64,000 bases of DNA from a virus (IMGVR_UViG_3300014047_000001:1-64000), one strand, 5' to 3'; counted from the stretch's first letter, positions 7,787 to 54,192 are shown. The notes: generated by a model not told the origin, from the letters alone. Made by a program: numbers and translations.

Positions 7787-9982
7787 ATGGCAAGAATTCG
7801 TAGACAATATGATATAAGAAGCAATGCTTTGGATAAACAGTCAGAGAAAGAAAAGCGCTCAAAGATTTATACATCAGAAATAATAGAAGAAATATTAAAA
7901 GATAAAACCGGTAAATAGGATTTAAATCCATTTTGGCATGGTCAAATAAATTACAGGGATTCTGGCGTTATTTTTGAGTATACTGATTGGGAAAAACATG
8001 AATTAGAAAAATGTGCAGATGATTGTTTATACTTTGCAGAGCATTATGCAAAATTTAAGAATGATAAAGGACACACACTTGTAAAACTTCGCGATTATCA
8101 AAAGCGTTTGCTTAGATTATTCAGTGAAGAAGAATATGATCCTGTATCTGAAACAGTTATTCCAAAAAATTCAAGAGCAATACTTCTTTAGAGTAGATAG
8201 ACTGGTAAGACAACAACAGTATGCTGTTATTTTACCTGGTTCCTTATATTCCATGATGATAAGACAAGTTTCGTGTCTGCAAATAAAGGATCAACTGGTA
8301 AAGAAATTATAAGTAAGATTAAAGACGTTCTTGAAGGTTTGCCATTCTTTATGAAACCTGGTATATTGAACCTTAGTGAAACTCGTATAAAATTTGAAAA
8401 TGGTTCATCGCTAAAAACAGCAGCAGCTTCTAAATCTCCTGCTACTGGTGATTCTTTACAGTTATTATATATTGATGAGGCTGCCCTTATTCCTGCACAT
8501 ATTATTGATGAATATTGGGCATCTATTCAGCCAACAATGTCTTCATTTAGAGGTAATCAGATTATATTTTCATCTACTCCACGCGGTAAAGGTAATTTAT
8601 TCTATAACATATATACAAAAGCAATTCCTTGGGATTCTCCGGCAAGAAAAGATCCAGCAAATAAAAATAAGTTTGTTAGCTCTCGTGTAGACTGGTGGGA
8701 AGTTCCTGGTCGTGATGAAGAATGGGAAAAACAACAGAGAGATGAATTAGGAGATGAGAAGTTTAATCGAGAATTTGGATTATCTTTTGAATCATCTACT
8801 ACACGTCTTATTAATGCATGGACTATTAATTTCATGAATAAAATTAAGAAACACTTTGTTTCAAGACCATTATATAATGTTCCTAATGATATATGTGAAA
8901 AGATTATATGGCACCCGGATTTTGATCCAAACTCATTAACATTATATGATTTGCTATATAATATATTCTTATTTGTTATTGACTTAGCACAAGGTATAGA
9001 AGCAGGTGTTGCAGGTAAAGAAGATGCAGACTATAATATTATACATATATATCGTATAGAATTGATGTCGCCAAGGAAGATAGAAGAAAACCGAGATTGG
9101 CAACATCCTATTGATATACGTAATGTTATACAATATAAAGAAATTGGTATTTATGCAGATAATTTTAAAGATGAGGAAATGTGTGCAGAAGCATGCAAGT
9201 ATTTAGCATTCAATGTATTTAAAACAGGATATAGTGACGGTGTGAATAATATTGATAATGTACGAATTTTATATGAAGTAAATTTCAATGGTAAAAACTG
9301 GTATAATAAATTTAAAGCACATCCGGGTTTTTATGATCAGATTATTATAAAAACACAAAATGGGGTAGATAAGAACGGAAATCCTGTACTTATGAATGGT
9401 TTCAGAACAAAGAATGGTTCAAAAGGAAAGAAATACTATTGTGATTTGGGAGAAAAAATGTTACGTCAACGTTAGATTATTGTGTCACAATATGATTCTA
9501 ATATTAATCTGTCTACAATATATCAATTAGAAAACTTTGGTAAAGATAAGAAAGGTAATTATAATGGAGCTGCTTGCCATGACGACTTATCTATAACTGT
9601 ATTTTTTGTAAGTATTGCTGGTGAATAGGAATATTTCAGAATATGGGTTGAAGAATGGTTAGAGAATATGATATTGACTCCAAAAGTTTAGATAATCCGC
9701 CAGATGTTAGAAATGTATGTAGAAACTGAACCAGAAATTACTGATCAAGAATTTACGGGATTCTATAATATGGCATCTGCTGGATTTGGTAAGATTACAA
9801 AACAGAGTAATTCATATAGTTCTTTAATGAATGGTAACAATACAAATAATTATGGATTATAGTAGCCGAGATATGGTAATATGCAACCGCGATATGGCAA
9901 TATGTAGCCGAGATATAATGGAATGCCTTATTAGTCTTAGCGAAATATAGCAGCAATGTCCAGATTTGTTAAATTTAAATGA
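7787..9982 (+). CDS. terL: terminase large subunit (T4 gp17-like)
   Basis: ATG at 7787 is in frame 2 with track ORF 8273..9475. The Walker A SRQTGKTTT, matching the T4 gp17 SRQLGKT motif, has its conserved Gln encoded by TAG. A Walker B-like LLYIDEAA follows. About 11 in-frame TAGs are present, and the gene terminates at TGA 9980-9982. Confidence 0.8.
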
Positions 9983-10010
9983 TGTATGTTTCCATACATC
10001 ATTTTTTATT
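9979..10010 (+). terminator. rho-independent terminator after terL
   Basis: ATGATGTAT-GTTTCC-ATACATCAT followed by TTTTTT. Confidence 0.5.
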
Positions 10011-10081
10011 GTTAAATATTTCCAATATATAAACTATTATAAAAAATAAAGTAAAATATAAAATGTTATCTTTGTATATTA

Positions 10082-10261
10082 ATGGAAATAAAGTTTTGTA
10101 AAGAGAAAATAAATCAAGGTGATTGTCAAACTTGCACACGTTATAAATCAAATAGTTATGATTATACAATAAAATGTACAGTTACAGATAATGATATTAT
10201 TAATGATTTTCAAGGCTTTTATTGTCCATTATATAATAATGGCGAACCTATAAAGATTTAA
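10082..10261 (+). CDS. small Cys-rich protein
   Basis: 59-aa ORF (MEIKFCKEK...), below the track cut-off. It ends at TAA. Confidence 0.3.
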   Translation: MEIKFCKEKINQGDCQTCTRYKSNSYDYTIKCTVTDNDIINDFQGFYCPLYNNGEPIKI

Positions 10262-10267
10262 TAGTTT

Positions 10268-10573
10268 ATGTTATATGTAAAACCACATGGATATTATTAT
10301 GTTGAAGGCATCGGCTGTATTAATTATGCAGATATTCAACATGGTTTAATTTCATGTTATAATGGATGCCCATTTTTTACACAATGTGATTCAGATGAAA
10401 GAAGTTATTGTAAAGCAAATACAGACACAATATTTCTTAAACTTATAGTAAAATCTGGTCATGTTATAAATGTTCCATATAAGTATTATAATGAATTTGC
10501 AAAGCATTGCAAATATTTGGGTATGCCATTATATGATATAAAGGTAGGTCAAAAATTAACAGCAGAACCATAA
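10268..10573 (+). CDS. Cys-rich hypothetical protein
   Basis: 101-aa ORF. Confidence 0.45.
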   Translation: MLYVKPHGYYYVEGIGCINYADIQHGLISCYNGCPFFTQCDSDERSYCKANTDTIFLKLIVKSGHVINVPYKYYNEFAKHCKYLGMPLYDIKVGQKLTAEP

Positions 10574-10974
10574 TGGCAACAATAAATGATATTTCTGGAA
10601 ATATTATAAAACAAACAGTAAAAAAAGCTTTAGAAGAAGCTTTTATAGAAGAATCATTTAAAGAAAAAACAAATGAATCTCAAAATAAATTATGGGATAA
10701 AGATAAACTTATATTAATATTCTATATTGGTATTGGAGGTATTAGTCAACAAAAAGCATATGAAATATTACAAAATATAAGTCATGAAATAGAAGATATG
10801 TTTGATGAATCGGTTAAATCAATTATTATGCCTGTAAGAGATAGAGGCGATATAAGGGTAGAACCAATTTATATGCAGACAATTACAAATAATGAAGATA
10901 ATAATCGTTTAATGGAAACAATTAATAAATTAGAACGAGCAGTAAAAAACTTATATGATACACAAATCGCTTAA
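10573..10974 (+). CDS. hypothetical protein
   Basis: 133-aa ORF. Its start overlaps the stop of the previous gene. Confidence 0.45.
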   Translation: MATINDISGNIIKQTVKKALEEAFIEESFKEKTNESQNKLWDKDKLILIFYIGIGGISQQKAYEILQNISHEIEDMFDESVKSIIMPVRDRGDIRVEPIYMQTITNNEDNNRLMETINKLERAVKNLYDTQIA

Positions 10975-11512
10975 TAAAACAAAGGAACGTCAGAGACAAT
11001 ATGACATAGCATATATGAAGATGGCAGAAGCTTTTGCTACTTTAAGTTATGCAAAGAGAAAACAGGTTGGTGCAATTATTGTTTCTAAGAATGATCAGGT
11101 CATTTCACAAGGGTTTAATGGTACTCCTCATGGATTCTCTAATATATGTGAAGAGATTCTATTTGCTGATGATGTTAAATTAAACTTGGATAATGATATT
11201 GAAAAGTTTAATGCATATGCAGATAATCTTGCTGCAGGTACATGGCAAAAAATGTCAGAGATTCCATATAGACTAAAAACAAAACCTGAAGTATTACATG
11301 CAGAGACTAATGCTATTACTAAATGTGCAAAATACAGTAATTCTACAGAAGGTGCAACATTATATGTAACATTAGCTCCATGTTTGAATTGTGCAAAGCT
11401 TATTGTTCAGGCGGAGATTGCAAGAGTAGTATATAAGGAATATTATAATGAGGATGCAGGACTTAATTTCCTTAGATCTTGTGGGGTGGAGGTCGTAGAG
11501 TTAACATATTAA
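10955..11512 (+). CDS. dCMP deaminase
   Basis: Zinc-binding HAETNAI and PCLNC motifs of the cytidine/deoxycytidylate deaminase family are present. There are no internal TAGs. Confidence 0.75.
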   Translation: MIHKSLNKTKERQRQYDIAYMKMAEAFATLSYAKRKQVGAIIVSKNDQVISQGFNGTPHGFSNICEEILFADDVKLNLDNDIEKFNAYADNLAAGTWQKMSEIPYRLKTKPEVLHAETNAITKCAKYSNSTEGATLYVTLAPCLNCAKLIVQAEIARVVYKEYYNEDAGLNFLRSCGVEVVELTY

Positions 11513-11514
11513 AT

Positions 11515-11787
11515 ATGGAAAATTATAAAGTCAATAAAGTTATAACGTTTTTCAATGGTTCTGAAATATTAGAGACTGAAAAATTTCAGTTGCATTCACC
11601 AGATGAATTACAGGATGCATTAAAATTGTGTATTGCAGAAACAATGAAGCAATATAAAAGCGAAAGAGTAGATGATGTTCGTTTTTATGGATTAGAAAAA
11701 GTTGAATATTTAGAAGTAAAGAATATTCTTCCAGAAGATATTAGGGAAGAATATATTTTAAATTTATACCACCAAATTAATAAGTAA
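11515..11787 (+). CDS. hypothetical protein
   Basis: ATG at 11515 is in frame with track ORF 11479..11787. Confidence 0.4.
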   Translation: MENYKVNKVITFFNGSEILETEKFQLHSPDELQDALKLCIAETMKQYKSERVDDVRFYGLEKVEYLEVKNILPEDIREEYILNLYHQINK

Positions 11788-11790
11788 ATT

Positions 11791-12165
11791 ATGATTACAT
11801 TTGTTATTGCTATTTTTTTACTTTTATTGTGTTATAACATTGTTAACAGAACCGTGTTTATTAATACATGTACATTTAAAGTTAAGAAACATTCAAAAAT
11901 TAAAAATTTTTATATTCTTTTGTTTCTTATAAATTTATTGTTATTTTTATTTAATAATACTATATATTGTATTATTGGCTGTAGTGCATTAATAGCTATA
12001 TGGATAATAAACAATATTTTATGTACAATATGTTCAAAACAATTAAATAAAAATGATAATTATTGTGATATTTGTATTGCAGTACGTTTGAAACATAAGA
12101 ATATATTTGATAAGATTATTCTCTTTATTCTTAAATGGATTAATGGAATTAAAAAGGTAAAATAA
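11791..12165 (+). CDS. small membrane protein
   Basis: 124-aa ORF with two hydrophobic segments and a Cys-rich tail. Confidence 0.45.
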   Translation: MITFVIAIFLLLLCYNIVNRTVFINTCTFKVKKHSKIKNFYILLFLINLLLFLFNNTIYCIIGCSALIAIWIINNILCTICSKQLNKNDNYCDICIAVRLKHKNIFDKIILFILKWINGIKKVK

Positions 12166-12971
12166 TGGCATATATTTCTTTTAATTATAAAGCAATACCA
12201 AAAAATCAGAATTCTCGTGGAAACAATATTGTTACACATGATTTCCCAGAAGAATATATTGTATCAATGGATGATATTGTATTAGATAACAGGGATGAAA
12301 CAATAGGTGCATTAAGGCAGTCTTATTTATATATGGATAAGACAGATTATAATTATATCAAACCTGTTATTATATGGCCAACACATACATTAAATGTTAT
12401 AGATGATTCTGACTATGAAGGTGCATTTATTGTTAGAACAATAGATGAGCGTGATGTTTTATGCTATATAGAAAAATGTGGAGAGGAATATAGATTGTGG
12501 CCTATTGATTATTTAATTCCTTGGAAACAACGAGTTAATCATGAAGAATTAAATCATATTTTTGTTTATAGGTTTCCAAAAAGAAACATCAAATGTTTTC
12601 TAAAAAAAGAAGACTATGAAAAAGATTTGTCTAAAAAATGCAAACATGCTGAAAAAGAATATGGGAAATATGTAGACAAAAAAGAAGAATTGTGTAATAT
12701 TCCTACATTTGCGTTAACAAGCCCGCAGTTTAAAATTATTTCAGTGGTTAAAAAAACTAAGTGGCTAACAGCAAAAGAAGGTGATGTTATTTATGGAAGC
12801 TTGCCTGTTATTGAAACAGATAATCAAGGGGTTGCACATAAACTTTTAAAAGGAATAGGAACACAGACAAATTATATAAATGTATATGTAAATGGAAAGT
12901 TTGAAAGACAAATGGGTCCATTAGATTTTCCGAAATTATTTTTAGAAAATTATAAAGTCGAAATTATATGA
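12165..12971 (+). CDS. hypothetical protein (paralog of 23627..24448)
   Basis: 268-aa ORF. Clear similarity along its length to the 273-aa ORF at 23627, for example FKIISVVKKTKWLTAKEGDVIYGSLPVIETDN against FKIEKIIKETEWTSAKEGDTIYGEIPVITKDN. Confidence 0.55.
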   Translation: MAYISFNYKAIPKNQNSRGNNIVTHDFPEEYIVSMDDIVLDNRDETIGALRQSYLYMDKTDYNYIKPVIIWPTHTLNVIDDSDYEGAFIVRTIDERDVLCYIEKCGEEYRLWPIDYLIPWKQRVNHEELNHIFVYRFPKRNIKCFLKKEDYEKDLSKKCKHAEKEYGKYVDKKEELCNIPTFALTSPQFKIISVVKKTKWLTAKEGDVIYGSLPVIETDNQGVAHKLLKGIGTQTNYINVYVNGKFERQMGPLDFPKLFLENYKVEII

Positions 12972-13264
12972 AAAAGTTTATATGGTTATTTCTATGTAGT
13001 ATTTTGTTCATATCTTGCGATGGTTTTTCTCGAGGGAAAGCTGCAGTAGAAGCTAAAACAGAAGATGGTAAAGAATACTTAGATATTAACGGACGCAGAT
13101 ATTTTAAAATAAAAGTATTTGACCATGATGCTTATCAGTGTATTTTTGATACACACGGAAGCTGGGGTTCGGATATAATTCATTTTTATGATAGATGTGA
13201 TTTCTGTAAAAAACATTTAAAGGATTATAAAGATTATACAAGTAATACAGATTTAATTAACTAA
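12968..13264 (+). CDS. small lipoprotein
   Basis: Signal peptide with a lipobox (LFISC). Confidence 0.45.
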   Translation: MKKFIWLFLCSILFISCDGFSRGKAAVEAKTEDGKEYLDINGRRYFKIKVFDHDAYQCIFDTHGSWGSDIIHFYDRCDFCKKHLKDYKDYTSNTDLIN

Positions 13265-13281
13265 TTTAAATTTAAACAACA

Positions 13282-14121
13282 ATGAAGAAAATTTTTAATC
13301 TTTGTTTTGGAATGTGCATGTTGATGATTGCACTTGTAAGTTTTACTGGTTGTACTGCTGCTGAGCCTGATGCTGATCAGGAAGGTGTATTGACAATGAA
13401 GCCTTGGTTCTTTGGACATGGTGGTGTAGATGATACTCCTATTCAGTCAGGTTTGACTTGGTGCGCATTGACAACCGATGTAAATTATGTAAAGGTAACT
13501 CCTGTTGCATATGATGAGCATATTGAAGATGCATATTCAGATGATAATACACAGCTTGACTTTGATATTCAGATTATTCTTCAGGTAGAACGTGGTAAGT
13601 CACCATTGCTGATTAAGAATTATGGAACAGATTGGTATAAGAACAATATTCATAAGATTTTTGTAAGTCATTTCTATAATCTTGTTGGTAATTATTCTCC
13701 ATTTGATTTGATGAGTAATCGTTCTGTTACTGATAGTATTGAGGGATTGATGAAGACTTATATGACTAATCATATTGCAAAACTTTCTAAGGCAAAGGGT
13801 GAGATGCCTGTTATTGTAAATAGTGTAACAGTTGGTAAGGGTACTCCTAATGAAGCTATGAAGAAAGAGATGGATCGTACTGCAGCAATGATTCAGGAAA
13901 GAAAGTCACAGGATCAGCGAGAGGCTGCACAGCGTTCACGTGAGAAGGCAGAGCGTCAGCGTGCTATTGCAGATAAGGCATATATGAGGGAAATGGGATT
14001 GACACCTGATCAGTATATTCAGCTCCGCGCATGGGATATTATTGAAAAGAAGCAGGGTGCAAATATTGACGTACTCTTTGATGGTTCAGCACAGCATATG
14101 TGGAATATCAAGAGGAATTAA
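13282..14121 (+). CDS. SPFH/band-7-like lipoprotein (tentative)
   Basis: Lipoprotein signal (SFTGC). A C-terminal charged helical region resembles the tails of the HflK/stomatin family. GC content and codon usage are distinctly higher than in the surrounding sequence. Confidence 0.45.
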   Translation: MKKIFNLCFGMCMLMIALVSFTGCTAAEPDADQEGVLTMKPWFFGHGGVDDTPIQSGLTWCALTTDVNYVKVTPVAYDEHIEDAYSDDNTQLDFDIQIILQVERGKSPLLIKNYGTDWYKNNIHKIFVSHFYNLVGNYSPFDLMSNRSVTDSIEGLMKTYMTNHIAKLSKAKGEMPVIVNSVTVGKGTPNEAMKKEMDRTAAMIQERKSQDQREAAQRSREKAERQRAIADKAYMREMGLTPDQYIQLRAWDIIEKKQGANIDVLFDGSAQHMWNIKRN

Positions 14122-14191: not shown

Positions 14192-14228
14192 AAGATCTAC
14201 TTATTAATTTAAGTAGATCTTTTTTAAT
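14192..14228. terminator. rho-independent terminator (bidirectional)
   Basis: Perfect 12-bp inverted repeat AAGATCTACTTA-TTAATT-TAAGTAGATCTT followed by TTTTTT. Confidence 0.55.
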
Positions 14229-14710
14229 GTATTCATTATATTATTAATAAAGCTAAGTATATAAAATTTATTAACAAATATTCTTTCCAATAATCCTTTC
14301 TTTTTCTTGCCATTAAATATTTCACCCTGTTCAATTTCGCCTGCTTTATATTTCTTAAAATCTCCTTGCCTTCCTGTTACAGATTTACCTGTTTCATTTG
14401 ACCATCTCTAATATACTTTTCTTGATTGTTTTGTAAAATGATCCAGACCTTTTTTACATATTTTAAAATATTGTTCTGGATCACATCCTATTAGTTCTTT
14501 TATCTGCTCTATTAAGAATGGTTTATATTTGAAATAATAATCATCTTTCTTTTTAGATCTGTATATATTTAATAGCCAATTAAAATTCTTAATGGTTTCC
14601 GCTATTTTCTTTGCCGTATCTGTATCTTTTATATTCTCTGAATATTGTGCTTCTGTATAAATTTCCTACAACCATGCAGCTACTTCATCTTTATCAAATC
14701 GATAATAAAC

Positions 14711-15580
14711 CTAAGGAATATAATATTTTATAAGATACCTTGCAGCATCAGGATCTGTTATTTCCAGTTTCATAGAATCTAATGCCTTTGAATATTGATT
14801 TGTGATTACATTATTACGTCTCTTAACAGATTGAAACATATGTTTTAATTCATGATTAATAGTACCTTTTATATCTGCTTTATATGCAGAAGTAAATTCA
14901 TCTGTTATTGGCCATAAAAAACTGAATATTATTTCTTTTGTTCCCGGACGCCAACAATTTTGAAATTTTGTACTATATGCGATATAATCATATTTTTCTT
15001 TAAATTCATCTTTAGGATTATATTGGAATAAATTAATAGTTATAGAAATATCAATACCATGAAAATCATATGATAATGATATAACTTTTGTATATATGTC
15101 ATTTTTTCCAGCACCTTCTCCTGTTGCATTTTTATATAATTCCCATGTATATTCTCTATGATGCTTTAAAATATAATTAAATATTTCATCTCCTATTTTT
15201 GTAATTTCATCTGATACGCCAAGGGATTCATCCATACGTAAAAGCTCCCTACTTATTCGTGACTCACCATGTTTCGGTGGTATATATGTTGGATGTTCTT
15301 GATATTTTGGTGCATTCTGTTGCTTATATTTTATTAATTCCTATGCTTGGTGTATTTTCTAATCTTCCTGCTTAATTTCATAAAGATATTGTGTTACACA
15401 ACGTTTAGCATTTTGTGTATTATATACTTCTACTTCTTTACCATTATAATATTTTTTAGTTGGTTTTAATCCATGTCTCTATAATACAATATGTATAGAT
15501 TTGAGCTATGGCTGATATGCATTATTGGTTGTACGTCTTATCTGTGATGCGAGTGTATTTACTGTAATAGTTGAATTCAT
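14711..15580 (-). CDS. HExxH zinc-metallopeptidase-like protein
   Basis: Track ORF 14711..15235 extends 5' in frame through five TAGs to an ATG near 15580. It carries an HELKH motif. The 3' end is uncertain: the track stop is TAG, and an open frame with no ATG continues to about 14197. Confidence 0.45.
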
Positions 15581-15986
15581 AATATTATTCATATTTTATA
15601 AATTATTTATTATATGAAATAAATATTAAAAATATTTGTAAATAGTATAATGATGTCTTTAAAGAAGTTTGATAATAATATAAATGTGCAAAATTATATA
15701 GAAAGCCATATTAATAAAAATATAATTATCACTAAACCAAATGCAGAAAATCCTGATAAAAAAGATATAATATACCATCGTGCTGGTGATATGGAAATAT
15801 ATACATAATTGCAGATCCTGAAGAAGACATATATTAGCTACACTTATACCAACATATGATGGAATGTGCTTTGCATTACAAGATTTACAATCATGTGGTT
15901 TGCCAAAGATGGTATAAGTGGCGTTGCCAACCAATAATGCAGTAGTATTAATAGACTTTTTTAAATATGTTAATATAATCTTTATT

Positions 15987-16940
15987 ATGAGACAATGTAA
16001 GATTATATTAACAAGAGGTATTCAAGGTTCAGGTAAGTCTACTTGGGCAAAAGCTTGGGTAAAAGAAGATCCGTTAAATCGAATACGATTTAATAATGAT
16101 GATATTAGAACAAGTCAAGGTGTTTATTGGCCGGATGATAATAAAGCATTGAAAAAGAAAGAATCATGCCTTAAGAAGATTAAAAAATATGCAATTCAAT
16201 GTTATATGGAATCTGGTTATGATATTGTTATTGATAATATGAATTTGAATCCTAATGAATGGACTTCTTTTAAAGATATTATTAAGAATTTTAACGATTC
16301 ACAGAAAGAATTTATTTATACATTAGAATTTCAGGATTTCTTTATTCCTGTAGAGGAATGTATTGCACGTGATGCATTGAGACCTAATCCTATTGGTGCA
16401 AAAGTTATTAAGGAAACATATAGACGTTATCGTCAGGAAATGATTGATATAGATAATCAGAAACTTAATAATGCCCGCCTTCCATATAATCCAGAACTTC
16501 CAAATTGTATATTGGCGGATATGGATGCAACATTATGTTTCAATACTTCAGGTCGTCCATATTTTGGCGATGGTTCGGCAGATAAGATGTATCTTGATGT
16601 GCCCAATGATCCAGTTATTAAGGTTGTTCGTAACTATTTGCGGTGTGCAGGTGAAAATGACCGCGTATTTATTGTAACAGGCAGAGAAGCAGCACCGGAT
16701 ATTAGAAAGGCTACAATAGATTATGTAAAAGAACATGTATCTGCAGATCCTCGTGTAGAGGTTATTATGAGGGTTGATAAAGATTACAGGAAGGGTGATA
16801 TTGTCAAGAAAGAACTTTATGAAACACATATTAAAGGAAAATACAATGTCGACTTTGTTCTTGATGATTCTATAAAGATTGTAAAGATGTACAGAGAATT
16901 AGGATTAACTGTGCTTCAGCCAAATGAAGGTAAGTATTAA
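15987..16940 (+). CDS. polynucleotide 5'-kinase/3'-phosphatase (T4 Pnk-like)
   Basis: N-terminal P-loop (TRGIQGSGKST) and C-terminal HAD phosphatase motif (DMDATL). Start chosen at ATG 15987 within track ORF 15918..16940. Confidence 0.65.
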   Translation: MRQCKIILTRGIQGSGKSTWAKAWVKEDPLNRIRFNNDDIRTSQGVYWPDDNKALKKKESCLKKIKKYAIQCYMESGYDIVIDNMNLNPNEWTSFKDIIKNFNDSQKEFIYTLEFQDFFIPVEECIARDALRPNPIGAKVIKETYRRYRQEMIDIDNQKLNNARLPYNPELPNCILADMDATLCFNTSGRPYFGDGSADKMYLDVPNDPVIKVVRNYLRCAGENDRVFIVTGREAAPDIRKATIDYVKEHVSADPRVEVIMRVDKDYRKGDIVKKELYETHIKGKYNVDFVLDDSIKIVKMYRELGLTVLQPNEGKY

Positions 16941-16942
16941 TT

Positions 16943-17293: not shown

Positions 17294-17315
17294 AAAACTT
17301 CTTCATGTTTTTTTG
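17283..17315 (+). terminator. rho-independent terminator
   Basis: ATGAAGAA-loop-TTCTTCAT followed by GTTTTTTT. Confidence 0.4.
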
Positions 17316-17350
17316 TATAATATATAGTATAAAATATTTTTTAATTAATA

Positions 17351-18474: not shown

Positions 18475-18477
18475 ATT

Positions 18478-19526: not shown

Positions 19527-19529
19527 TAT

Positions 19530-44877: not shown

Positions 44878-44895
44878 AATTAACCCTCTTTTTAT
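44866..44895. terminator. rho-independent terminator (bidirectional)
   Basis: AGAGGGTTA-GTAAAAT-TAACCCTCT followed by TTTTTAT. It lies between convergent genes. Confidence 0.5.
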
Positions 44896-47800
44896 TATTG
44901 ACCTTCATTTTCAAAAACAGTATTTTGTAATTGTATCTCTGCTGTTCTATAATTATATGCATTATAATTATCTATTGTAAATTGTCCACCTGCATATTGT
45001 ATAGGGTTATTACCATAATAATCTTTTGCAGTTTTCCAGAAATCATCCTGGTGCTCATCATCTGTTCCAATATGTATATGCTTGCTTTGCGTACCCATAT
45101 CATCTGTGGAAACCTCTATATAAGCAGAAACACCATGATCATACATAAGCTTTAATACACCGCCATTACCAAATATATGATTCTTTAATACGTCATTAAA
45201 AGATATACCGTTATTAATTATATCAATAGCTTCACCATATAAATGTCTAGAATTATTTGTACTGATATACATTATATTTCCACGAGCATCCTTACATTTA
45301 TACTTATCTCCACTCTTTACAAATGCATTACCTTCAACTTTTTCTCCATTAGTATCTACTGCATATCTCCTTGCACCAACGAGTTTTATTTTATGTGCAG
45401 AAGACTCATCTATAGCTCTGTAAATATCTTTCATGAAATCTTTTAAACCAGTCAAAGGTACATCACCCACGTTATCTTCTTCAGCTACTTTATTATCCTA
45501 AGAAATTTCTTCTTCTGTTTTATTTGCTGTTACGTTATCACCTGTTGGTGTATTTGGATTAGGATTTGTACTTTCATTTGTAGGTATATTATTCTATTGT
45601 TCCGCTAAAGAATTCTTTACATTTTGATAACCAGGAATTGGCCATTCTCTGCGTGTTAATTCTAATTCTGTAGACCATGCTGATTCAGCGCGCTTTGGCG
45701 TACTTGTAAATATCCATTTAATAGATTTAATAATAAACCATCCAGATAATGTTGTATAAGTACAAGTGTTTAAGAAACGTGCATGCAAAGTATTTTCATC
45801 AACTTTTACTTCTTTTCCTGTAGATGGATCAAATGTTACCGGATTAGTGCTCAAAAGTGATGTTAATTTGTTATTGTCCAAGAATAATGTAGGAATTTTT
45901 TCACCTCTCATCATTGCAAAGTTTGCGCCATTCAATTTAACCTTTACAATCTTCTTAAGTAATTGCATGTTATTAATCTTATTATGCTCAAAAGCGGCAT
46001 CATAAAATTTATTAACATTACCGGTAGCTAATTCATTACTTCCTGTATCTGCAATAGTTTCTCCATCGGAATCTGCCATCATATCAGAATCTCTACCTCC
46101 ACGTTTCTTTGTATTCTATTTAACATAAGAACCATTATCTGCTTGTACATAAGTTCCATTAGTACCTGGACCTACTAATATATAGAAACCACCATTTGGA
46201 TATTTAGCAGCATTATATGGTATTGAATATGTCATTTCTACTGCATTATTATCTGGTTCAACGCCCTGATTATTAATAACAAAATTTGTTGTTACTGATA
46301 TACCAACCTGCTTTGTTATTTCTGCTGCTTGATTGACTTCTTTAAAATCTATAGCATATAATGCTGTACCAGCTTCATCATCATTCGGTATATTTGTAAT
46401 TAATTTCAACTACGGACGCGGAGCTGATTTTTGTTCTCCATCTGTTGCAGAACCATGCTGATTATCTACACCTCTATTATGCTTAAACACATCATTAAAT
46501 AAAGTTATATCAAATGTTTCATCAGGACCGTCTTCACCAAGCATTTTATTAACATTCAAGAAAGTCAATCCATAACGGGGATCTATCCAAGCATCAAAGA
46601 ATGATTCAAAGTTTTTCCATGAATGTGCAACTGTATCCTTAATATAATCCATTAAATTTGAACCTTGTGCTTTACCCTCTTCATCTGAAGATTCTGCCAT
46701 ACAATACCATAATTGGTTGTCATCTGTATTTTCTGGATCACAGAAGAAAAAGCCTAATCCTAATTTTGCTGCTGCATCTATCATTGCATCTCTACTAGTT
46801 CCTGCAAAAGAGAATGACATATTAGCATTATGTAAATTAGGTATAAACAATTCGCCCATTATGGTAAAATTATAAGGAACATTTAATTGATTCTATGAAA
46901 CTTCACTACTATCTACATAAGTTATAAGAAAATCACAACGTAAAGATTTTATCATACCATGACCTGGCGAACAGAATACTGCAATAATATCGCCTTCTTT
47001 TGGAACATTTGTTTTTAATAAGTCATTATTAGTTGTTGTAATTTCTAATGTAATTGTAGGAATAAATCCTACACATGCTATTTCCATTCTATCTATTTCT
47101 TTCTATGAGAAATAATAATCATTAATACGAATAATAGGATATGTAGCGCCAACTTCCAATGTAATATCTGGCTGATTTCCAGAAAGCTTCTAAGAACCTG
47201 CAGACATATCTTCAACATTTGCATATGTTGCTGTACTTGAATCCGCTGAATAATGCATACCAGTAGCAGGATTTATAGGTGTATTATTACCATCCATTGG
47301 TAAAGATAATTCGTCAAGCTATATAGTAGGTTCACTATACTTATAAATACGTGTACGTTTTTGTCCGTCTTCAGTACCACCAGCTGATAACTATGAATAT
47401 ATATTATCGCCGGCAGTTGCCAATACACTTGGTGCATTAGAAGAATATTGATTCTATACACCTGCAAGCTGATCATAATAATTATCCATATTATTTTCAT
47501 CTATTGGTGGAGTGGGTGCATTTCCATCATATCCTTCTGAATAAAATAAATTTGCTTCTCTTATTCGACGTCTTCTTAAGCCTTTTTCATGGCGAGAACC
47601 CGGTAATACATAAGAAGATTGCCATGTAGTTGTAACCTTTGATTTATTTTTATATCCATTACCCTATATAGTTTTTCCTAATGTAGTACGTGATATATTA
47701 CCATGATTATATGCAATACTAAACATAGCATCAAACATACTTTGCGTCATACCAGTATGCCATATTTTGTTTACATCCGCAGAAATAGTTTTTGAATCCT

Positions 47801-47975
47801 ACTTAAAGAATGCCATACATTCTGTATCTGAATAACGTTTACCATTAACGAGATCTCTAGAATGATGTCCAAATCCAACAGTTGGATATGATTCGCCATC
47901 TAATATATATGCAACATTAGAATAACCTTCTGCAGTTTTTAAAAAATTAAACCCGTTTTGACTTATCTATGCCAT
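44895..47975 (-). CDS. virion-associated dual-domain lysin: N-terminal GH24 (T4-lysozyme-like) plus C-terminal M15 peptidase (1026 aa)
   Basis: Track ORFs 44895..45470, 45594..46082, 46116..46409, 46410..46859 and 46893..47087 share one frame and are joined by TAG. Manual translation of 47088..47975 is open apart from TAGs. The N-terminus TAEGYSNVAYILDGESYPTVGFGHH matches the T4 lysozyme EG...TIGIGH motif. The C-terminus SRHLYGEAID...HIH is M15/VanY-like. Confidence 0.6.
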
Positions 47976-48011
47976 TTTGAATTATAATAGATTTATATAA
48001 TATATATACAA

Positions 48012-48050
48012 TAAAAAATGTGCTATCAAAATTGGTAGCACATATTTTCT
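48012..48050. terminator. terminator hairpin (AAAAATGTGCTAYCA core), copy 1
   Basis: ATGTGCTATC-AAAATT-GGTAGCACAT flanked by A- and T-runs. It lies 3' of the LRR gene. Confidence 0.45.
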
Positions 48051-48122
48051 TATATAATTTAGTATTTAAATTGTTATTAATAAGTAACAGCCCGGATAGA
48101 TAATTCATAATATTTTAATTTA

Positions 48123-51100
48123 TTATTGTTCTACTTTAGTCCAATTATAACTACCTAAATAATAACTATCTGTACTCATCCATGTATCATAACCAGTACT
48201 ACCAGCAGGTACTGTTAATGTGCCACCTCGCTTTACACTGTTAAATGTACGCTTTACTATTGTAGGTGCTGTCATCGCATTAGATACTATATTTGTTAAA
48301 CCGCTACAATCATTGAAAGCATAATTACCAATACTTGTAACACTATTTGGAATTGTTACACTTGTTAAACCGCTACAGTTACTGAAAGCCCAACCACCAA
48401 TGTTTGTAACACTATCCGGTATGACTATACTTGTTAAACTACTACAACTACCGAAAGCACTACTACCAATACTTGTAACATCGCTTGGTATAACCGTATT
48501 TTTGCAACCACTAATAAGAGTATTTGTTGCAGTCTCAATAATTGCATTACAGTTATTACGTGAGTCATATACTGTATTATTGCTATCAACGGTAATACTT
48601 GTAAGACTACTACATCCCATGAAAGCACTACTGCCAATACTTGTAATACCACTACCAATGATTACATTTGTTAAACCATCACACCATTCCAAAGCATAAT
48701 TACCAATACTTGTAACACTATTTGGTATATTTATGCTTGTAAGACCACTACATCCTTGGAAAGCACTTTCACCAATGCTTGTAACTCCACTACCAATAGT
48801 TACACTTGTTAAACCGCTACAGTTATTGAAAGCTTTATTATCAATGTTTGTAACACTATCCGGTATGACTATACTTGTTAAACTATTACAACCATAGAAA
48901 GCCTCATTACCAATTGATGTTACTGAATCTGGTATAATTACATTCGTAAGTCCTGTACAATAACTGAATGCATTGTTACCAATTGATGTGATACCTTCAG
49001 GTAATGTAAATAAAACAGTATGTTCACCTGTTGAATTAAATGTATAGTATTTTTCAACTTTTTTTTCCTCGCCATCCACTTTCATTGAACTAAAATTATT
49101 AGTACTATCTAATAATGTTGTTGGGTGGCTTGTATCAGCAACATTATATTTGCACAATACTTGGTTTTCTTCTAATATTGTCCAATTATACTTACCTAAA
49201 TAATAATCGTCGGTTCCCATCCAAACATCATATCCAGTAGAACCTGCTGGTACAGTTAATATACCATCTGACTTAATACTTTGGAATGTCCAATCTTGTA
49301 TAGTTGGAGCAGTAGTTGCATTACATGTTATATTCATAAGACCTGAACAATTATAGAATGCGGTATCACCTATAGATGTTACTGAATCGGGTATAGTTAT
49401 GCTTGTAAGTTCAGAACAATTTTGGAATGCAGCGCTACTTATTGATGTCACAGAGTTGCCTATAATTACACTTGTAAGTCCTCTACAACCAGAGAATGCA
49501 GCACTACTTATTGATGTCACAGAGTTGCCTATAATTACACTTGTAAGTTCAGAACACTCATAGAATGCAGCACTACTTATTGATGTTATAGAATCGGGTA
49601 TAATTATGCTTGTAAGTCCTGAATCAGAGAATGTATATTCACCTATTGATGTTACTGAATCGGGTATAGTTATGCTTGTAAGCCCTGAACAACCAGAGAA
49701 TGCATAATCACCTATTGATGTGACTGAATCAGGTATAGTTATGCTTGTAAGCCCTGAACAATAAGCAAATGCATGATTACCAATTGATGTCACTGAATTA
49801 CCTAATGTCACACTTGTAAGTGCAGAACAATTATTGAATGCATATTCACCTATTGATGTGACGCCATCTGCTAATGTAAATAAAACAGTATGTTCACCTG
49901 TTGTACTAAATGTATATGAATTTGCAATTTCAAGTTGTTTAACTCCATCTATTGACATAGAACTAAAATTATTAGTAGTACTATTTAATAATGTTGTTGG
50001 ATTTGCTATAGAAGTAACATTATATTTGCATAATACTTGGTTTTCTTCTAATATTGTCCAGTTATACTTACCTAAATAATAATCGTCGGTTCCCATCCAA
50101 ACATCATATCCTATAGAACCTGCTGGTACAGTTAATATACCGCCTGCCTTAATATGGTAGAATGTATTAGATGATATAGTTGGTGCGGTAGTTGCATTAC
50201 ATATTATACTTGTAAGTCCAGTACAATAAGCAAATGCGCTTCCATCTATAGATGTTACAGAATTACCTATTGTTACGCTTGCAAGTGCTGAACAACAAGC
50301 GAATGCACCTAAACCTATTGATGTTACAGAATTACCTATTGTCACACTTGTAAGTCCAGTACAATTAGCGAATATACTTGCACTAATTGATGTTACAGAA
50401 TTACCTATTGTCACACTTGTAAGTCCAGAACAACCCATGAATGCACCTCCACCTATTGATGTTACAAAATTAGGTATAATTACACTTGTAAGTCCCGAAC
50501 AACCAGAGAAAGCATTATCACCTATAGATGTTACAGAATTAGGTATAATTACGCTTGTAAGTCCTGAACAATTTTTGAATGCATTGTTACCTATAGATGT
50601 GACAGAATTACCTATTGTTACACTTGTAAGTCCAGAACAACCCATAAATGCACCTCCACCTATTGATGTGACTGAATTTGGTATAATTATACTTGTAAGT
50701 CCTGAACAACTATTGAATGCAGCTCCATCAATTGATGTTACAGAATCTGGTATAGTTACGCTTGTAAGAACAGAACAATTTTGGAAAGCACCAGAACCTA
50801 TTGATGTCACTGAATTTGATATGATTATGTTCGTAAGTCCAGAACAATTGACGAATGTGCCTGGTTCAATTGATGTGACAGAGTTACCTATAATTACACT
50901 TGTAAGTTTAGAACAATCTTGGAATGCACTTGTACCCATTGATGTTATACCATCTGCTAATGTAAATAAAACAGTATGCTCACCAGTTGTATCAAATGTA
51001 TATGAATTTGCAACTTCTTTTTCTTCTCCATCAATCTCCATTGACTTGAATATATTCTGCCCATAGCTTGTTCTTAATGTTGTTGGTATGCCTGTAGAAG

Positions 51101-51944
51101 TAACATTATATTTGCATAATACTTGATTTCCTTCTAATATTGTCATTGTCCAGTTATACTTACCTAAGTTTTCTGAGTAATAATCATCTTTTCCCACCCA
51201 AATATCATAACCCGTAGAACCTGCCGGTACTATTAATGTACCTCCAGACTTAATACCTTGGAATGTATTTGGATATATTGATGGAGCAGTTATCACATTA
51301 CATATTATATTCGCAAGTGCAGAGCAATTATTGAATGCACCATAACTAATATCTGAGATTGAATTACCTATTGTTACATTTATAAGTCCAGAACAATCAG
51401 CAAATGCACCTGCACTAATTGATGTTACTGAATCTGGTATAGTTATGCTTGTAAGTCCAGAACAATATTGGAATGCGGCAGAATTAATATATATTACAGA
51501 ATCTGGTATAGTTATACTTGTAAGAGCAGAACAACCAGAGAATGCACCTGGACCAATTGAGGTAACTGAGTTGCCTATAATTACGTTTGCAAGTGCAGAA
51601 CAATTTTCGAATGCTCCTGTATCTATTGATGTTACACCATCTGCTAATGTAAATAAAACGGTATGTTCACCAGTTGTATTAAATATATATGATTTTGTAA
51701 CTTCTTTTTCTTCATCATCCACTATCATTGAACTAAAATTATTAGAACTATTAAATAATGCTGTTGAAGTATTAATATCAGTAACATTATATTTGCACAA
51801 TATTTTAGATCCGGTAAAAGGATTAAAATAAGGTTTATTCTAATCTTCACATAAAGATACATTGGGTAAAATAAATTTTGATATATCAGATGCATAAGCT
51901 TGATATTCCTATACAGTATTAAATAATTTTATGTATCTCCCCAT
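48123..51944 (-). CDS. BspA-type leucine-rich-repeat (LRR_5) surface/receptor-binding-like protein (1274 aa)
   Basis: The 1225-aa track ORF has no internal TAG. An upstream in-frame ATG at 51942-51944 is reached across two TAGs. About 22-aa repeats (F..C..L.S(V/I)TIP.SVTSIG..AF) are organised in four modules of about 300 aa, each opening with NQVLCKYNVTS...TTGEHTVLFTL. The gene ends at TAA. Confidence 0.65.
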
Positions 51945-52026: not shown

Positions 52027-52066
52027 ATCGGCATTTATTAAAATAGTTTTTGTGTAATCTTGCTAA

Positions 52067-52252
52067 TTACTCAGCTACGACTGTATCAACTGCTGCTGTG
52101 TCAGCAACTACAGAATCTACTGCAGCTGAGTCAACGACAGTAGTATCTACTGCAGTACTATCTGCATCAGCAGCACCAGCAACGCTGTTACCGCAACCTA
52201 CGAATGCACTTACTGCAACAAATAATGCCATTGTGTAAAAAAGCTTCTTCAT
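52067..52252 (-). CDS. small repeat lipoprotein
   Basis: Signal peptide with a lipobox (AFVGC), followed by four copies of a 7-aa (A/T)AVD(S/T)(V/T)V repeat. Confidence 0.4.
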   Translation of the reverse strand: MKKLFYTMALFVAVSAFVGCGNSVAGAADADSTAVDTTVVDSAAVDSVVADTAAVDTVVAE

Positions 52253-52267
52253 AATTTTTTAATTTAA

Positions 52268-53452
52268 TTAATTTTTGTTATTATTTATTTTTATATCTGA
52301 CATAAGATTTAATAAATCCATTTCAAAGTCAGAATCTAATATTATATCATCTTTTATAATTTTGTCTATACTTTCAGAAGTATTTTCATTATTTTCTTTT
52401 GATTTTCCTATTCCATATATTATATCATAATATATTTCATACATCTTCTTTAGCATCCTTGCTAAAATTCTTTTATAATGTGTTCCTAACTTTGATAAAA
52501 GTTTCAAACCATCACCTTGCACATTTATATGTATATTCCGTGTTTTAAAAAGTTTTATAAATACCTCTCTATTTTTTAAAATAATGTCATCTAATAGATC
52601 TAGATCAATTTTATTTATATTATTCCAGAAAATATATAATGCTCTATAAATTCTAAATATACTTATATCATAATATGTAAATGATAAAATATTCTATACA
52701 TTTGCTGCCCATTGGTCAGATCTGGTAAGTTTATTATAATCTTTTTTTAATAGATTTGTTTTTTCAAATGCATCTATAATTTCATCTATATGGCTTTGTG
52801 CTAACATTTTTAATGAAACCGCATACTCCTATAAAAATGCTTGTACTTCTCCCGGATTAATATAATATATAGATTTAAATATAGTAGATGTAATATATTC
52901 TTCATCTGTATATATTTTCTAATTCACTTCTAAATAATCATGACTCCAATTTGCAATAAGTGGACATTTGTTAGCATATTGTATACCCAATTTATATAAA
53001 TCATTATCAATATCATATAAACCGGTATTTGTTGTTTTCTTTATATAATCTGTATAAGCATGACGGAATTCATGGGTGAGCTCTTTAAAAAATTGCTCAT
53101 ATGATTTTCCTGAATGATCAACAATAGCAATAGTAAAATCTAATTTATTATTATTTAATACTGCATCATGTTTATAACATGCAGAATATATTTGATTATT
53201 ATACTCTTCTATTTCTATATAGAAATTGCCTATCCAATTAGGAATAATAGAATTATCAAATAATTGGTTATTTTTATATTTCCAATAGCTTTTGAGTATA
53301 GACATAGTAATAATAGGCTATTCAGACGGATTTAAATCTATATAATTATTTAATCCGTCTTCTGCATCATATATATAGTCTGCAATAAGTTTTACTAATT
53401 TATCTGTTATTTTTAACTAATCTGTTAAAATGCCATGAGATTCATTTATCAT
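52268..53452 (-). CDS. HExxH zinc-metallopeptidase-like protein (394 aa)
   Basis: Track ORFs 52268..52522 and 52919..53305 share a frame, joined through several TAGs. It is extended to an ATG near 53452 across two more TAGs. HEFRH motif present. Confidence 0.5.
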
Positions 53453-53589
53453 TATAAATGAAATTTATTTTTATTATTTATTTACTGGATACAATAACAC
53501 AAATATTTTATCAATTATCAGCAAAGTTGTTTTTATTTTTGATAAATAAAAAGATAAATAATTTATAAAAATATATTTTTTAAAAGAAT

Positions 53590-54192
53590 ATGGCAGATAC
53601 AACTAGTAATGGTTTAATGAGATTACCACACTTTACAAGTTCTAAAGTCAGCATGGACAAAGACGAACCTATATACACTAACCTGTTCACTATCACGTTA
53701 GTCCCACCAGCATCTATTGCAAATGAAAATGATTAGGATACGTTGGTAGTTCTTGAAGGTATCAAGAGTATATCTGGTTTGAATACACAGCCAGGTAATG
53801 GTACAGTATCTCAGAAGTATAAGTTTGCTGAGCGTATGTTCGCAGGTCCAGCACCATCTCAGACACACTTGACATTGAATATAGCATTCCAGCTTAATGT
53901 CCGTCCTGGTGTTGCATCTGATGAAAACTATACTTATAAGTTCTTGCGTAAGTGGCATGACCTTGTATATGATCCATTGACAGGTCGTATGGGTATCAAG
54001 CAAGAATATGCTGCATCTAGTATGACAATTACAATGCAAGATCGTAGGGGTGTTCCATATTGGCAGTGGATTTGTTATAACGTTTGGCCTTCTGGTCAGC
54101 TTAATGGTCCAGATCTTTCATATGACGGTGGGCAGATTATGGAAGCACAGTGTCAGTTTGAGGCAGACTACTTCGATGAATCAATTCTTTAA
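53590..54192 (+). CDS. tail tube protein (T4 gp19 family)
   Basis: ATG at 53590 is in frame with track ORF 53743..54192, across one TAG. The NLFTITL motif corresponds to gp19 NLFQVEI. GC content is higher here. Confidence 0.6.

What the first reader, a model, noticed from the sequence alone, without database searches (positions are those of the whole stretch)
7787..54192. In-frame TAGs are concentrated in packaging and structural genes and nearly absent from replication and nucleotide-metabolism genes
Approximate counts from this window are as follows. The giant repeat protein 40840..44877 has about 25 TAGs. The tape-measure-like gene has about 12, TerL about 11 and the dual lysin about 14. 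The 34866..39104 structural genes and the HExxH genes carry several each. In contrast dCMP deaminase, Pnk, clamp loader, Prs-like, HAD, metallophosphatase, HD, the HxGH NTase and Nudix have none, and dUTPase has one near its N-terminus. This fits a model in which a late-expressed suppressor gates late-gene translation. Neither a suppressor tRNA nor a release-factor gene lies in this window.
Basis: partly seen in the sequence, partly recalled or inferred. Interest (0 to 1): 0.75.

Follow-up and report, generated by a model that had tools for sequence, protein, structure and literature searches.

The report
Amber codons mark phage late genes
This stretch of an uncultured gut phage related to the Lak megaphages reads the stop codon TAG as glutamine, but only in a set of genes (DNA packaging, tail, lysis and large unannotated proteins) that also carry a T4-style late promoter; this pattern has already been published for Lak and other recoded phages.

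Summary
With TAG read through, 80 genes cover about 96% of the window. 54 genes (7,870 codons, 208 CAA/CAG) have no in-frame TAG. 26 genes hold 122 TAGs, about 27% of their glutamine codons. Off-frame TAG density and GC content are equal in the two sets. TAG means Gln: it sits at the invariant Q of the terminase Walker-A motif, and 24 of 32 TAGs align to CAG, CAA or TAG in a syntenic relative. HMM-annotated enzymes carry 1 TAG in 2,508 codons; terminase, baseplate hub, tube and lysin carry about 12 per 1,000.

New here: the T4 late-promoter motif NATAAATA lies 15-60 nt upstream of 16 of 26 TAG genes and 2 of 54 TAG-free genes. This independently marks the TAG genes as a co-regulated, probably late, class.

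No suppressor tRNA or release factor was found in the window or in the fetched flanks of this genome and a close relative. The gating model is therefore only partly supported.

The closest named relatives are Lak megaphages, for which Devoto 2019 and Borges 2021 already describe the same TAG pattern. This is a new member of a known kind. A possible extra is an excess of TAG in the first 15 codons, including genes whose only TAGs lie there.

The parts
1191..3242 (+). g03, 683-aa unknown protein with 5 in-frame TAG. TATAAATA at 1162-1169 lies 29 nt upstream, directly after a terminator-like hairpin at 1127-1158.
   Evidence: The ortholog in L006 has 7 TAG and the same motif.
6309..6965 (+). g11, 218 aa, 6 TAG (60% of its Gln codons). 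TATAAATA at 6271-6278, after the hairpin at 6249-6267.
   Evidence: Synonymous differences upstream of the codon-15 TAG against L006 show that the N-terminus is coding.
6962..7729 (-). g12, 255 aa, 3 TAG. TATAAATA at 7751-7758 on the minus strand, 29 nt upstream.
7787..9982 (+). Large terminase (T4-type Terminase_6N) with 11 TAG, two of them in the Walker-A SRQxGKT motif. TATAAATA at 7755-7762. Terminator-like hairpin at 9977-10004.
10082..14121 (+). TAG-free unit g14-g22 (dCMP deaminase 10955-11512, SPFH 13282-14121). About 91-92% nt identity to relative L006.
14204..15592 (-). g23, HExxH protein, 7 TAG. AATAAATA 19 nt upstream.
15650..27160 (+). Mostly TAG-free block g24-g47: PNK 15987-16940, HAD-like 21749-22282, Prs-like 22300-23163, clamp loader 26168-27160. 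4 TAG in 3,619 codons, all within the first 18 codons of g27, g29 and g44.
17351..18112 (+). g27, baseplate hub/spike (gp5/V OB domain). Its single TAG at codon 7 is conserved in L006 (M[G/A]KRTG-TAG). No alternative start within 60 codons.
27272..34064 (+). Unit g48-g52 with 17 TAG. TATAAATA at 27238-27245. The g48 TAG at codon 10 (MKFPYELSE-TAG) and the promoter are conserved in three phages. g51 (32278-33519) is not a capsid protein: its C-terminus has a SET-like fold.
34150..40761 (-). Unit g56-g53 (551, 520, 886 and 234 aa) with 16 TAG. GATAAATA upstream of g56. g53 has a weak match to a tail-sheath PHROG.
40840..44877 (+). g57, 1,345-aa repeat protein, 21 TAG. TATAAATA at 40806-40813.
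44895..51944 (-). Unit g60-g58. BspA-type LRR protein 48123-51944 has 2 TAG, at codons 12 and 35. The 1,026-aa lysozyme-domain protein 44895-47975 has 13 TAG. AATAAATA 21 nt upstream of g60.
52268..53452 (-). g62, HExxH protein, 5 TAG.
53590..54192 (+). Tail tube protein, 1 TAG among 12 Gln codons.
54259..59959 (.). TAG-poor units g64-g68 (-) and g69-g74 (+): HD, metallophosphoesterase, NTase and dUTPase. 2 TAG in 1,834 codons: g68 at codon 22 and dUTPase at codon 10.
59983..61929 (-). g76-g75 (DUF285 repeat protein and a 345-aa protein), 8 TAG.

Best explanation
The window is part of an uncultured gut phage of at least 151 kb whose terminase is closest to the Lak megaphages (order Grandevirales). 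It uses genetic code 15, in which TAG encodes Gln.

Its genes fall into two expression classes.
- Class 1 (54 genes) holds nucleotide-metabolism enzymes, the clamp loader and many small ORFs. It contains no TAG at all. These genes can be translated by the unmodified host, where TAG is a stop.
- Class 2 (26 genes) holds terminase, baseplate hub, tail tube, the lysozyme giant, HExxH proteins and large unannotated proteins. TAG supplies about 27% of their Gln codons. They sit in separate units that begin with a T4-type late promoter (NATAAATA), often right after a terminator.

Proposed sequence of events. Host RNA polymerase and ribosomes express class 1. Later, a phage late sigma-like factor turns on class 2, and a phage tRNA-Sup(CUA), encoded outside the window, makes the class 2 mRNAs translatable. 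Until then, any class 2 message ends at its first TAG.

What is shown: the two classes, TAG = Gln, and the link between promoter motif and TAG.
What is inferred: the timing, the suppressor, and the idea that TAG acts as a second lock and is not a mere by-product.
For: - Reading TAG through raises sequence in long ORFs from 38 to 57 kb, and gene coverage reaches 96%.
- TAG sits at the invariant Q of the TerL Walker-A motif.
- Window TAGs align to CAG (13), CAA (6), TAG (5) and other codons (8) in syntenic relative L006.
- 0 TAG against 208 CAA/CAG in 54 genes, compared with 122 against 336 in 26 genes, at equal off-frame TAG density and GC.
- Class membership is conserved in L006, L084 and L088 while sites turn over.
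- NATAAATA lies 15-60 nt upstream of 16/26 TAG genes and 2/54 TAG-free genes, p = 2e-8. For exact TATAAATA the counts are 7/26 and 0/54.
- The same holds among genes with an upstream gap of at least 50 nt: 12/16 against 2/10.
- The motif link is replicated in a region never used to find the motif: 4/8 against 0/20 in L083.
- The motif is conserved upstream of orthologs.
- TATAAATA at -13 to -6, with a variable first base, is the T4 late-promoter consensus (PMC1524935).
- All 81 genes end in TAA (63) or TGA (18), so no TAG-free gene uses TAG as its stop.
- Lak phages show the same regional TAG use and encode tRNA-Sup(CUA) plus RF2 (PMC6784885). The gating model is in Borges et al. (10.1101/2021.08.26.457843).
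Against: - No suppressor tRNA, RF2 or late sigma was found in the window, in about 14 kb of flanks of the same genome, or in relatives' loci.
- Function does not predict class perfectly. dUTPase (1 TAG), a RecA-like gene (3) and the L006 deoxyribosyltransferase (1) carry TAG. g52 and a ClpP-like gene in L083 do not.
- Most large TAG-rich genes have no HMM annotation, so calling them 'structural' rests partly on context.
- TAG genes already have their own promoters, which makes a translational lock redundant.
- In more distant recoded relatives the motif association is weak: 8/125 against 2/97, p = 0.19.
Confidence: 0.65

Rival explanations
1. Passive by-product. TAG has no regulatory role. In an AT-rich genome, CAG-to-TAG changes are neutral wherever the suppressor is present when the gene is expressed, so they drift into late or fast-evolving genes. 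They are purged from genes translated earlier. Timing is set by promoters alone.
For: - TAG sites turn over fast: only 5 of 32 are shared with L006, and most of the rest align to CAG/CAA.
- TAG genes are the fast-evolving ones, at 61-81% nt identity to L006 against 91-92% for the main TAG-free block.
- The same link to mutation rate was noted in 10.1101/2023.08.07.552389.
- TAG genes have their own late-type promoters.
Against: - Nine TAG-free genes that are just as diverged (60-83% nt identity, 997 codons) have 0 TAG where about 10 would be expected (my arithmetic).
- TAG is enriched in the first 15 codons (12 observed, 3.8 expected, p = 5e-4) while CAA/CAG is not (9 observed, 10.5 expected). 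The TAG share of Gln codons is 57% there and 25% elsewhere, p = 0.004.
- The codon-7 TAG of g27 and the codon-10 TAG of g48 are conserved across relatives while internal sites are not.
Confidence: 0.3
2. Module origin. The TAG-free genes are recent imports or recombinant modules from standard-code phages or hosts. They have not had time to acquire TAG. This would be independent of expression timing.
For: The main TAG-free block is 91-92% nt identical to L006, while neighbouring TAG genes are 61-78%. That mosaic pattern is compatible with recent exchange.
Against: - GC and off-frame TAG density are the same in both classes.
- TAG-free and TAG-bearing genes are interleaved at single-gene scale and on both strands.
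- Diverged TAG-free genes also lack TAG.
- TAG-free status is kept in relatives as distant as 70% protein identity; the clamp loader has 0 TAG and 19-23 Gln codons in three phages.
- No TAG-free gene uses TAG as its stop.
Confidence: 0.05
3. Artefact. The in-frame TAGs are real stops in fragmented genes or pseudogenes, or they come from wrong gene calls.
For: - One called ORF, g61 (5 TAG in 65 codons), was spurious.
- Two N-terminal TAGs (g72, g77) disappeared once the starts were corrected.
Against: - Full-length homologs exist, with Q at the TAG positions.
- TAG and CAG/CAA exchange between orthologs.
- The independent ENA gene calls are the same full-length genes.
- There are synonymous changes upstream of the N-terminal TAGs.
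Confidence: 0.01

Closest known systems
Lak megaphages (Prevotella phages Lak-A/B/C; order Grandevirales), Devoto et al. 2019, PMC6784885
   Same: - Closest named terminase: 42-43% identity to GenBank Lak genomes and 54% to Wendovervirus sonii.
- Code 15.
- TAG is unused in large parts of the genome and used in regions that encode structural proteins.
- Structural genes lie in several scattered TAG-using modules.
- AT-rich genome from an animal gut.
   Different: - The contig is 151 kb, not about 540-660 kb.
- In Lak, replication genes are mostly recoded. Here the clamp loader and the nucleotide-metabolism genes are strictly TAG-free.
- The suppressor tRNA and RF2 known from Lak were not seen in the part of the genome I could read.
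Stop-codon recoding as a regulator of late and lysis genes (crAss-like, Agate, Jade and other clades), Borges et al., 10.1101/2021.08.26.457843
   Same: - Early genes in standard code; structural and lysis genes with in-frame recoded stops.
- The proposed switch by a suppressor tRNA.
- A TAG-rich ORF interrupting a TAG-free gene (L083 IMPDH) parallels their recoded intron endonuclease.
   Different: - That paper does not mention a late-promoter motif tied to recoded genes.
- A search of the preprint for N-terminal, truncation or beginning found nothing on where TAG sits within genes.
- This lineage is not one of their named clades as far as I could test.
T4-type late transcription (gp55 sigma, gp33, gp45 clamp; promoter TATAAATA)
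   Same: - The octamer TATAAATA/NATAAATA lies 15-60 nt upstream of the ATG of late-type genes; exact TATAAATA lies at 29-38 nt for six unit leaders.
- The first base is variable, as in T4 relatives.
- T4-type terminase, and a clamp loader in the window.
   Different: - No gp55, gp33 or gp45 homolog was detected in the window.
- The host is probably a Bacteroidota member, not an enterobacterium.
- Promoter function is inferred from position only.

Membership tests
Code-15 (TAG to Gln) recoded phage | Genes are fragmented under code 11 and restored when TAG is read through | tested here: met
   Sequence in ORFs of at least 150 aa rises from 38.0 kb to 56.6 kb. There are 80 genes at 96% coverage. 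The ENA gene calls agree.
Code-15 (TAG to Gln) recoded phage | TAG aligns with glutamine in homologs | tested here: met
   Q is invariant at the TerL Walker-A TAG. 24 of 32 TAGs align to CAG, CAA or TAG in L006.
Code-15 (TAG to Gln) recoded phage | Phage-encoded tRNA-Sup(CUA) | tested here: inconclusive
   None in the window (ARAGORN default and -ps80; Rfam at E up to 1), in L001-L005 or in L083. About half of the 151-kb scaffold could not be read. Borges et al. detect one in only 40% of TAG-recoded genomes.
Code-15 (TAG to Gln) recoded phage | Release factor 2 gene (seen in some lineages; not universal) | tested here: inconclusive
   No RF-domain Pfam hit among the 60 window proteins of at least 95 aa. 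The rest of the genome was not read.
Code-15 (TAG to Gln) recoded phage | Recoded codons concentrated in structural, packaging and lysis genes | tested here: met
Lak megaphage / Grandevirales | Terminase groups with Lak terminases | tested here: met
   The best GenBank phage hits are all Lak (42-43%); the next is below 30%. The best named protein is from Wendovervirus sonii, order Grandevirales. No tree was built.
Lak megaphage / Grandevirales | Genome of about 0.5 Mb | tested here: not met
   The source scaffold is 151,201 bp. Close relatives sit on contigs of 58-299 kb. Completeness is unknown.
Lak megaphage / Grandevirales | Prevotella host | not tested
   There are only indirect hints of a Bacteroidota host: BspA and DUF285 repeat proteins, a lipoprotein, and weak TAnnTTTG motifs.
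T4-type late transcription | TATAAATA-type element upstream of late genes | tested here: met
   Conserved in relatives.
T4-type late transcription | gp55-like late sigma and gp33 co-activator | tested here: inconclusive
   No Pfam or PHROG hit among the window proteins. The rest of the genome was not read.
T4-type late transcription | Sliding clamp and clamp loader | tested here: inconclusive
   A clamp-loader AAA+ protein lies at 26168-27160. No sliding clamp was recognised.

The most novel reading that the evidence does not exclude
TAG may be used in two distinct ways in this lineage.

1. In units driven by the late promoter NATAAATA, TAG is scattered through the genes as an ordinary Gln codon.

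2. Six genes have no such promoter and sit inside otherwise TAG-free units: g05, baseplate hub g27, g29, g44, g68 and the dUTPase g73. They carry only 1-2 TAGs, and all 7 lie within the first 22 codons. A seventh gene, g48, leads a late unit and keeps a TAG at codon 10 in three diverged phages. Such N-terminal TAGs would act as cheap translational gates. Before the suppressor appears, ribosomes fall off after a few codons. The gene's protein output is thereby tied to the code switch, independently of transcription.
Probability: 0.3. Interest if true: 0.6.

Novelty: new member of a known kind. Interest (0 to 1): 0.35.

Why it matters
The finding gives a clean, quantitative example of the two-class TAG pattern in a much smaller relative of the Lak megaphages. 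It adds an independent marker, a T4-like late-promoter motif, that separates TAG-bearing from TAG-free genes without any functional annotation.

That marker makes the late-gene hypothesis testable on sequence alone in related genomes. It also helps gene calling and annotation of recoded phages, because promoter plus TAG status predicts the temporal class of unannotated genes.

If the N-terminal amber 'gates' are real, they would be the first sign that the position of recoded stops within genes is under selection. That would argue that recoding is used for control and is not merely tolerated.

Tried and rejected
- Megablast of 7.8 kb against GenBank phages found no match.
- A single-protein TerL scan of IMG/VR found nothing. 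The alignment-based scan gave 73 loci.
- I tried to walk along the source scaffold to find the suppressor tRNA. A homolog search returned only a 93% relative, which gave 10 kb more and no tRNA.
- The relaxed ARAGORN run (-ps80) gave 25 hits, none with a CUA anticodon and nearly all overlapping coding sequence, so I treated them as false positives.
- Sigma-70-type promoter scans were no better than shuffles. The Bacteroidota -7 motif TAnnTTTG lies upstream of some TAG-free unit leaders but is too frequent (128 hits) to count as evidence.
- Weak HMM hits (E about 1e-3 to 1e-4) suggested g51 is the major capsid protein. This is rejected: the AlphaFold model (pLDDT 79) is helical with a C-terminal SET-like domain.
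- PDB sequence searches for g51, g54 and g55 gave nothing useful.
- The N-terminal TAG excess is not seen in the heavily recoded Lak-type loci. Pooled over relatives it is marginal: 33 observed, 24.7 expected, p = 0.058.
- The low TAG density of the BspA protein, first taken as an exception, is explained by its low Gln content.

Full report
**What the window is**

The 64-kb window has 29.5% GC. It matches the start of a 151,201-bp scaffold from a wolf gut metagenome, WOLF17-1_SAMN02302770 scaffold_20. A second assembly of the same run extends it.

There is no near-identical DNA in GenBank phages. The large terminase is T4-type (Terminase_6N). Its homologs sit on contigs of 58 to 660 kb, and the best named one is from Wendovervirus sonii, order Grandevirales (54% identity). 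By tblastn, the only GenBank phages above 30% identity are the Prevotella Lak megaphages at 42-43%. So this is an uncultured, much smaller relative of the Lak lineage.

**Genetic code**

Reading TAG through raises the sequence in ORFs of at least 150 aa from 38.0 to 56.6 kb. It gives about 80 non-overlapping genes covering 96% of the window, and these match the independent ENA gene calls.

TAG is glutamine:
- In TerL, TAG occupies the invariant Q of the Walker-A motif SRQxGKT and two other mostly-Q columns.
- Against the syntenic relative L006 (TerL 86-88% identical), window TAGs align to CAG 13 times, CAA 6, TAG 5 and other codons 8.

**Checking the observation**

|---|---|---|
| 40840-44877 | 21 | about 25 |
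| 28137-31712 | 11 | about 12 |
| TerL | 11 | 11 |
| Lysozyme giant | 13 | about 14 |
| 34866-37526 | 5 | several |
| 37542-39104 | 6 | several |
| Two HExxH genes | 7 and 5 | several |

The annotations hold:
- Nudix, deoxyribosyltransferase, dCMP deaminase, PNK kinase-phosphatase, Prs-like PRTase, clamp-loader AAA+, HD, CTP_transf-like NTase and dUTPase by Pfam.
- HAD-like and metallophosphoesterase by PHROGs.
- Baseplate hub, tail tube and endolysin domain by PHROGs.

The dUTPase TAG at codon 10 is truly in frame.

The distribution is far from uniform:
- X2 = 176 on 80 df, p = 3.6e-9. There are 52 TAG-free genes against 29 expected.
- After correcting two starts and dropping one spurious ORF, 54 genes (7,870 codons, 208 CAA/CAG) have 0 TAG. 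The other 26 genes (12,444 codons) have 122 TAG and 336 CAA/CAG.
- Off-frame TAG (19.2 against 21.9 per 1,000) and GC (0.289 against 0.298) are the same in both sets.
- Annotated enzymes against HMM-annotated virion, packaging and lysis genes: 1/2,508 against 33/2,857 codons, p = 2e-8.

All 81 genes end in TAA (63) or TGA (18), so no TAG-free gene uses TAG as its terminator.

**Independent evidence that the TAG genes are a regulatory class**

The octamer TATAAATA is not over-represented in the window: 21 copies against 31.7 expected. Its placement is what stands out. Six copies sit 29-38 nt upstream of the ATG of TAG-bearing unit leaders (g03, g11, g12, TerL, g48, g57) and one sits upstream of g50.
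- Exact octamer 15-60 nt upstream: 7/26 TAG genes against 0/54 TAG-free genes, p = 2e-4.
- NATAAATA: 16/26 against 2/54, p = 2e-8.
- Restricted to genes with at least 50 nt of upstream spacer: 12/16 against 2/10, p = 0.014.

Terminator-like hairpins with T-runs abut the motif before g03 and g11. Another follows TerL.

The motif is conserved upstream of the orthologs in L006 and in L084 and L088. L083, a close relative's region outside the window, was not used to find the motif. There it precedes 4 of 8 TAG genes and 0 of 20 TAG-free genes.

TATAAATA at -13 to -6, with a poorly conserved first T, is the late-promoter consensus of T4 and its relatives, read by gp55 with gp33 and the sliding clamp (PMC1524935). 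No gp55, gp33 or gp45 homolog was recognised in the window. In more distant recoded relatives the association fades: 8/125 against 2/97.

**Conservation**

TAG-free and TAG-bearing status is conserved gene by gene in L006, L084 and L088. Individual TAG sites mostly are not.

TAG genes are also the fast-evolving ones. They show 61-81% nt identity to L006, against 91-92% for the main TAG-free block. That fits a published remark that recoded genes mutate more and feeds the passive-drift rival. However, nine TAG-free genes with 60-83% nt identity (997 codons) still have no TAG, where about 10 would be expected at the class 2 rate (my arithmetic). Divergence alone does not explain the pattern.

**Mechanism**

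The best-supported reading is the published temporal code-switch model. Early genes are written in code that the naive host can translate. Late genes, switched on from T4-like late promoters, contain TAG and yield full-length protein only once a phage suppressor tRNA is available.

The suppressor itself remains unseen. There is no tRNA in the window at default or relaxed thresholds, and no Rfam hit at E up to 1. There is none in L001-L005, L083 or the recoded relatives' TerL neighbourhoods. About 73 kb of the scaffold could not be reached with the tools.

Whether TAG is an active second lock or a passive consequence of late expression is open.

**What is already known**

- Devoto et al. reported that in Lak phages TAG is unused in large parts of the genome and used in regions encoding structural proteins. 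They also found tRNA-Sup(CUA) and RF2 in those genomes (PMC6784885).
- Borges et al. generalised this to eight clades. [quoted passage not shown]

The finding is therefore a correct rediscovery in a new member of a known kind.

**Side observation that may be new**

TAG is over-represented at the start of genes. 12 of 122 TAGs lie in the first 15 codons, against 3.8 expected (p = 5e-4). CAA/CAG are not enriched there: 9 of 336 against 10.5 expected. TAG makes up 57% of Gln codons in that stretch and 25% elsewhere (p = 0.004).

Six TAG genes lack the late motif and lie inside TAG-free units: g05, g27, g29, g44, g68 and g73. All their TAGs (7) fall within the first 22 codons. The chance of that under uniform placement is about 1e-6 by my arithmetic, but the test is post hoc.

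Start-site artefacts were checked:
- g27 and g73 have no alternative start.
- g03, g11 and g48 show synonymous differences upstream of the TAG in relatives.
- The g27 codon-7 TAG and the g48 codon-10 TAG are conserved.
- g05 and g29 keep N-terminal TAGs at different positions in L006.

The bias also appears in L006, the L008 group and L024. It is absent from heavily recoded Lak-type loci, and pooled over relatives it is marginal at p = 0.058. I found no mention of it in the Borges preprint. I rate it as a lead, not a result.

Noticed in passing
window 1162-1169, 6271-6278, 7751-7762 (both strands), 27238-27245, 31692-31699, 40806-40813: Exact T4 late-promoter octamer TATAAATA 17-38 nt upstream of TAG-bearing genes (29-38 nt for the six unit leaders, 17 nt for g50). 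With its NATAAATA variants it separates TAG genes from TAG-free genes (16/26 against 2/54). It is conserved in relatives.
   Followed up: yes
window: g05 3646-4065, g27 17351-18112, g29 18478-19080, g44 25199-25435, g48 27272-28135, g60 48123-51944(-), g68 55926-56240(-), g73 58237-58794: Excess of TAG in the first 15-22 codons. Several genes have only N-terminal TAGs. The codon-7 TAG of g27 and the codon-10 TAG of g48 are conserved across relatives. These may be translational gates.
   Followed up: partly
window 32278-33519 (g51): Weak HMM hits to capsid families are misleading. An AlphaFold model of the 97%-identical ortholog (pLDDT 79) is helical with a C-terminal domain that matches SET-domain methyltransferases such as vSET (target TM-score 0.68-0.74, rmsd about 2.1 Å). 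The family is confined to Lak-related phages.
   Followed up: partly
window 862-1190: This is the largest non-coding gap, 329 bp and relatively GC-rich. It is 88-92% identical to L006 although the next gene, g03, is only 69% identical at nt level. The predicted fold has z = -2.3. There is no Rfam or tRNA hit. It ends in the terminator plus late promoter of g03.
   Followed up: partly
window 1-19600 against L006: Mosaic conservation. TAG-free units g14-g22, g25-g26 and g30 are 89-93% nt identical to the relative (g16 is 83%), while TAG-bearing genes are 61-81%. g04 and g21 have no counterpart in L006.
   Followed up: partly
window 51970-52252 (-): The ORF first called here (g61, 5 TAG) is spurious. 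The real gene is a 61-aa lipoprotein at 52067-52252(-), MKKLFYTMALFVAVSAFVGC..., with AAVD repeats and no Gln codon.
   Followed up: yes
L083 9830-12527 (relative, outside the window): An IMPDH-like gene is split. The TAG-free halves (one with a Hint/intein hit) flank a 357-aa ORF that has 6 TAGs and its own AATAAATA motif. This resembles the recoded intron endonuclease described by Borges et al.
   Followed up: no
L004 16264-17568 (about window coordinate 69.7-71.0 kb): The RecA-like gene of the same phage carries 3 TAGs (codons 5, 10 and 89) and has no late motif. Recombination genes are therefore not all TAG-free.
   Followed up: partly
window 48123-51944(-) and 61045-61929(-): A 1,273-aa BspA-type leucine-rich-repeat protein (11 LRR_5 stretches) and a DUF285 repeat protein. 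Both are typical of gut Bacteroidota and Mycoplasma surface proteins, and both lie in TAG-bearing units.
   Followed up: no
window 12165-12971 (g20) and 23627-24448 (g42): Two TAG-free paralogs of about 270 aa and unknown function. g42 aligns to the L006 ortholog of g20 at 38% identity.
   Followed up: no
relatives P0003, P0004, P0008 (TerL homologs): Several related terminases carry an intein (PF14890). The window's TerL does not.
   Followed up: no
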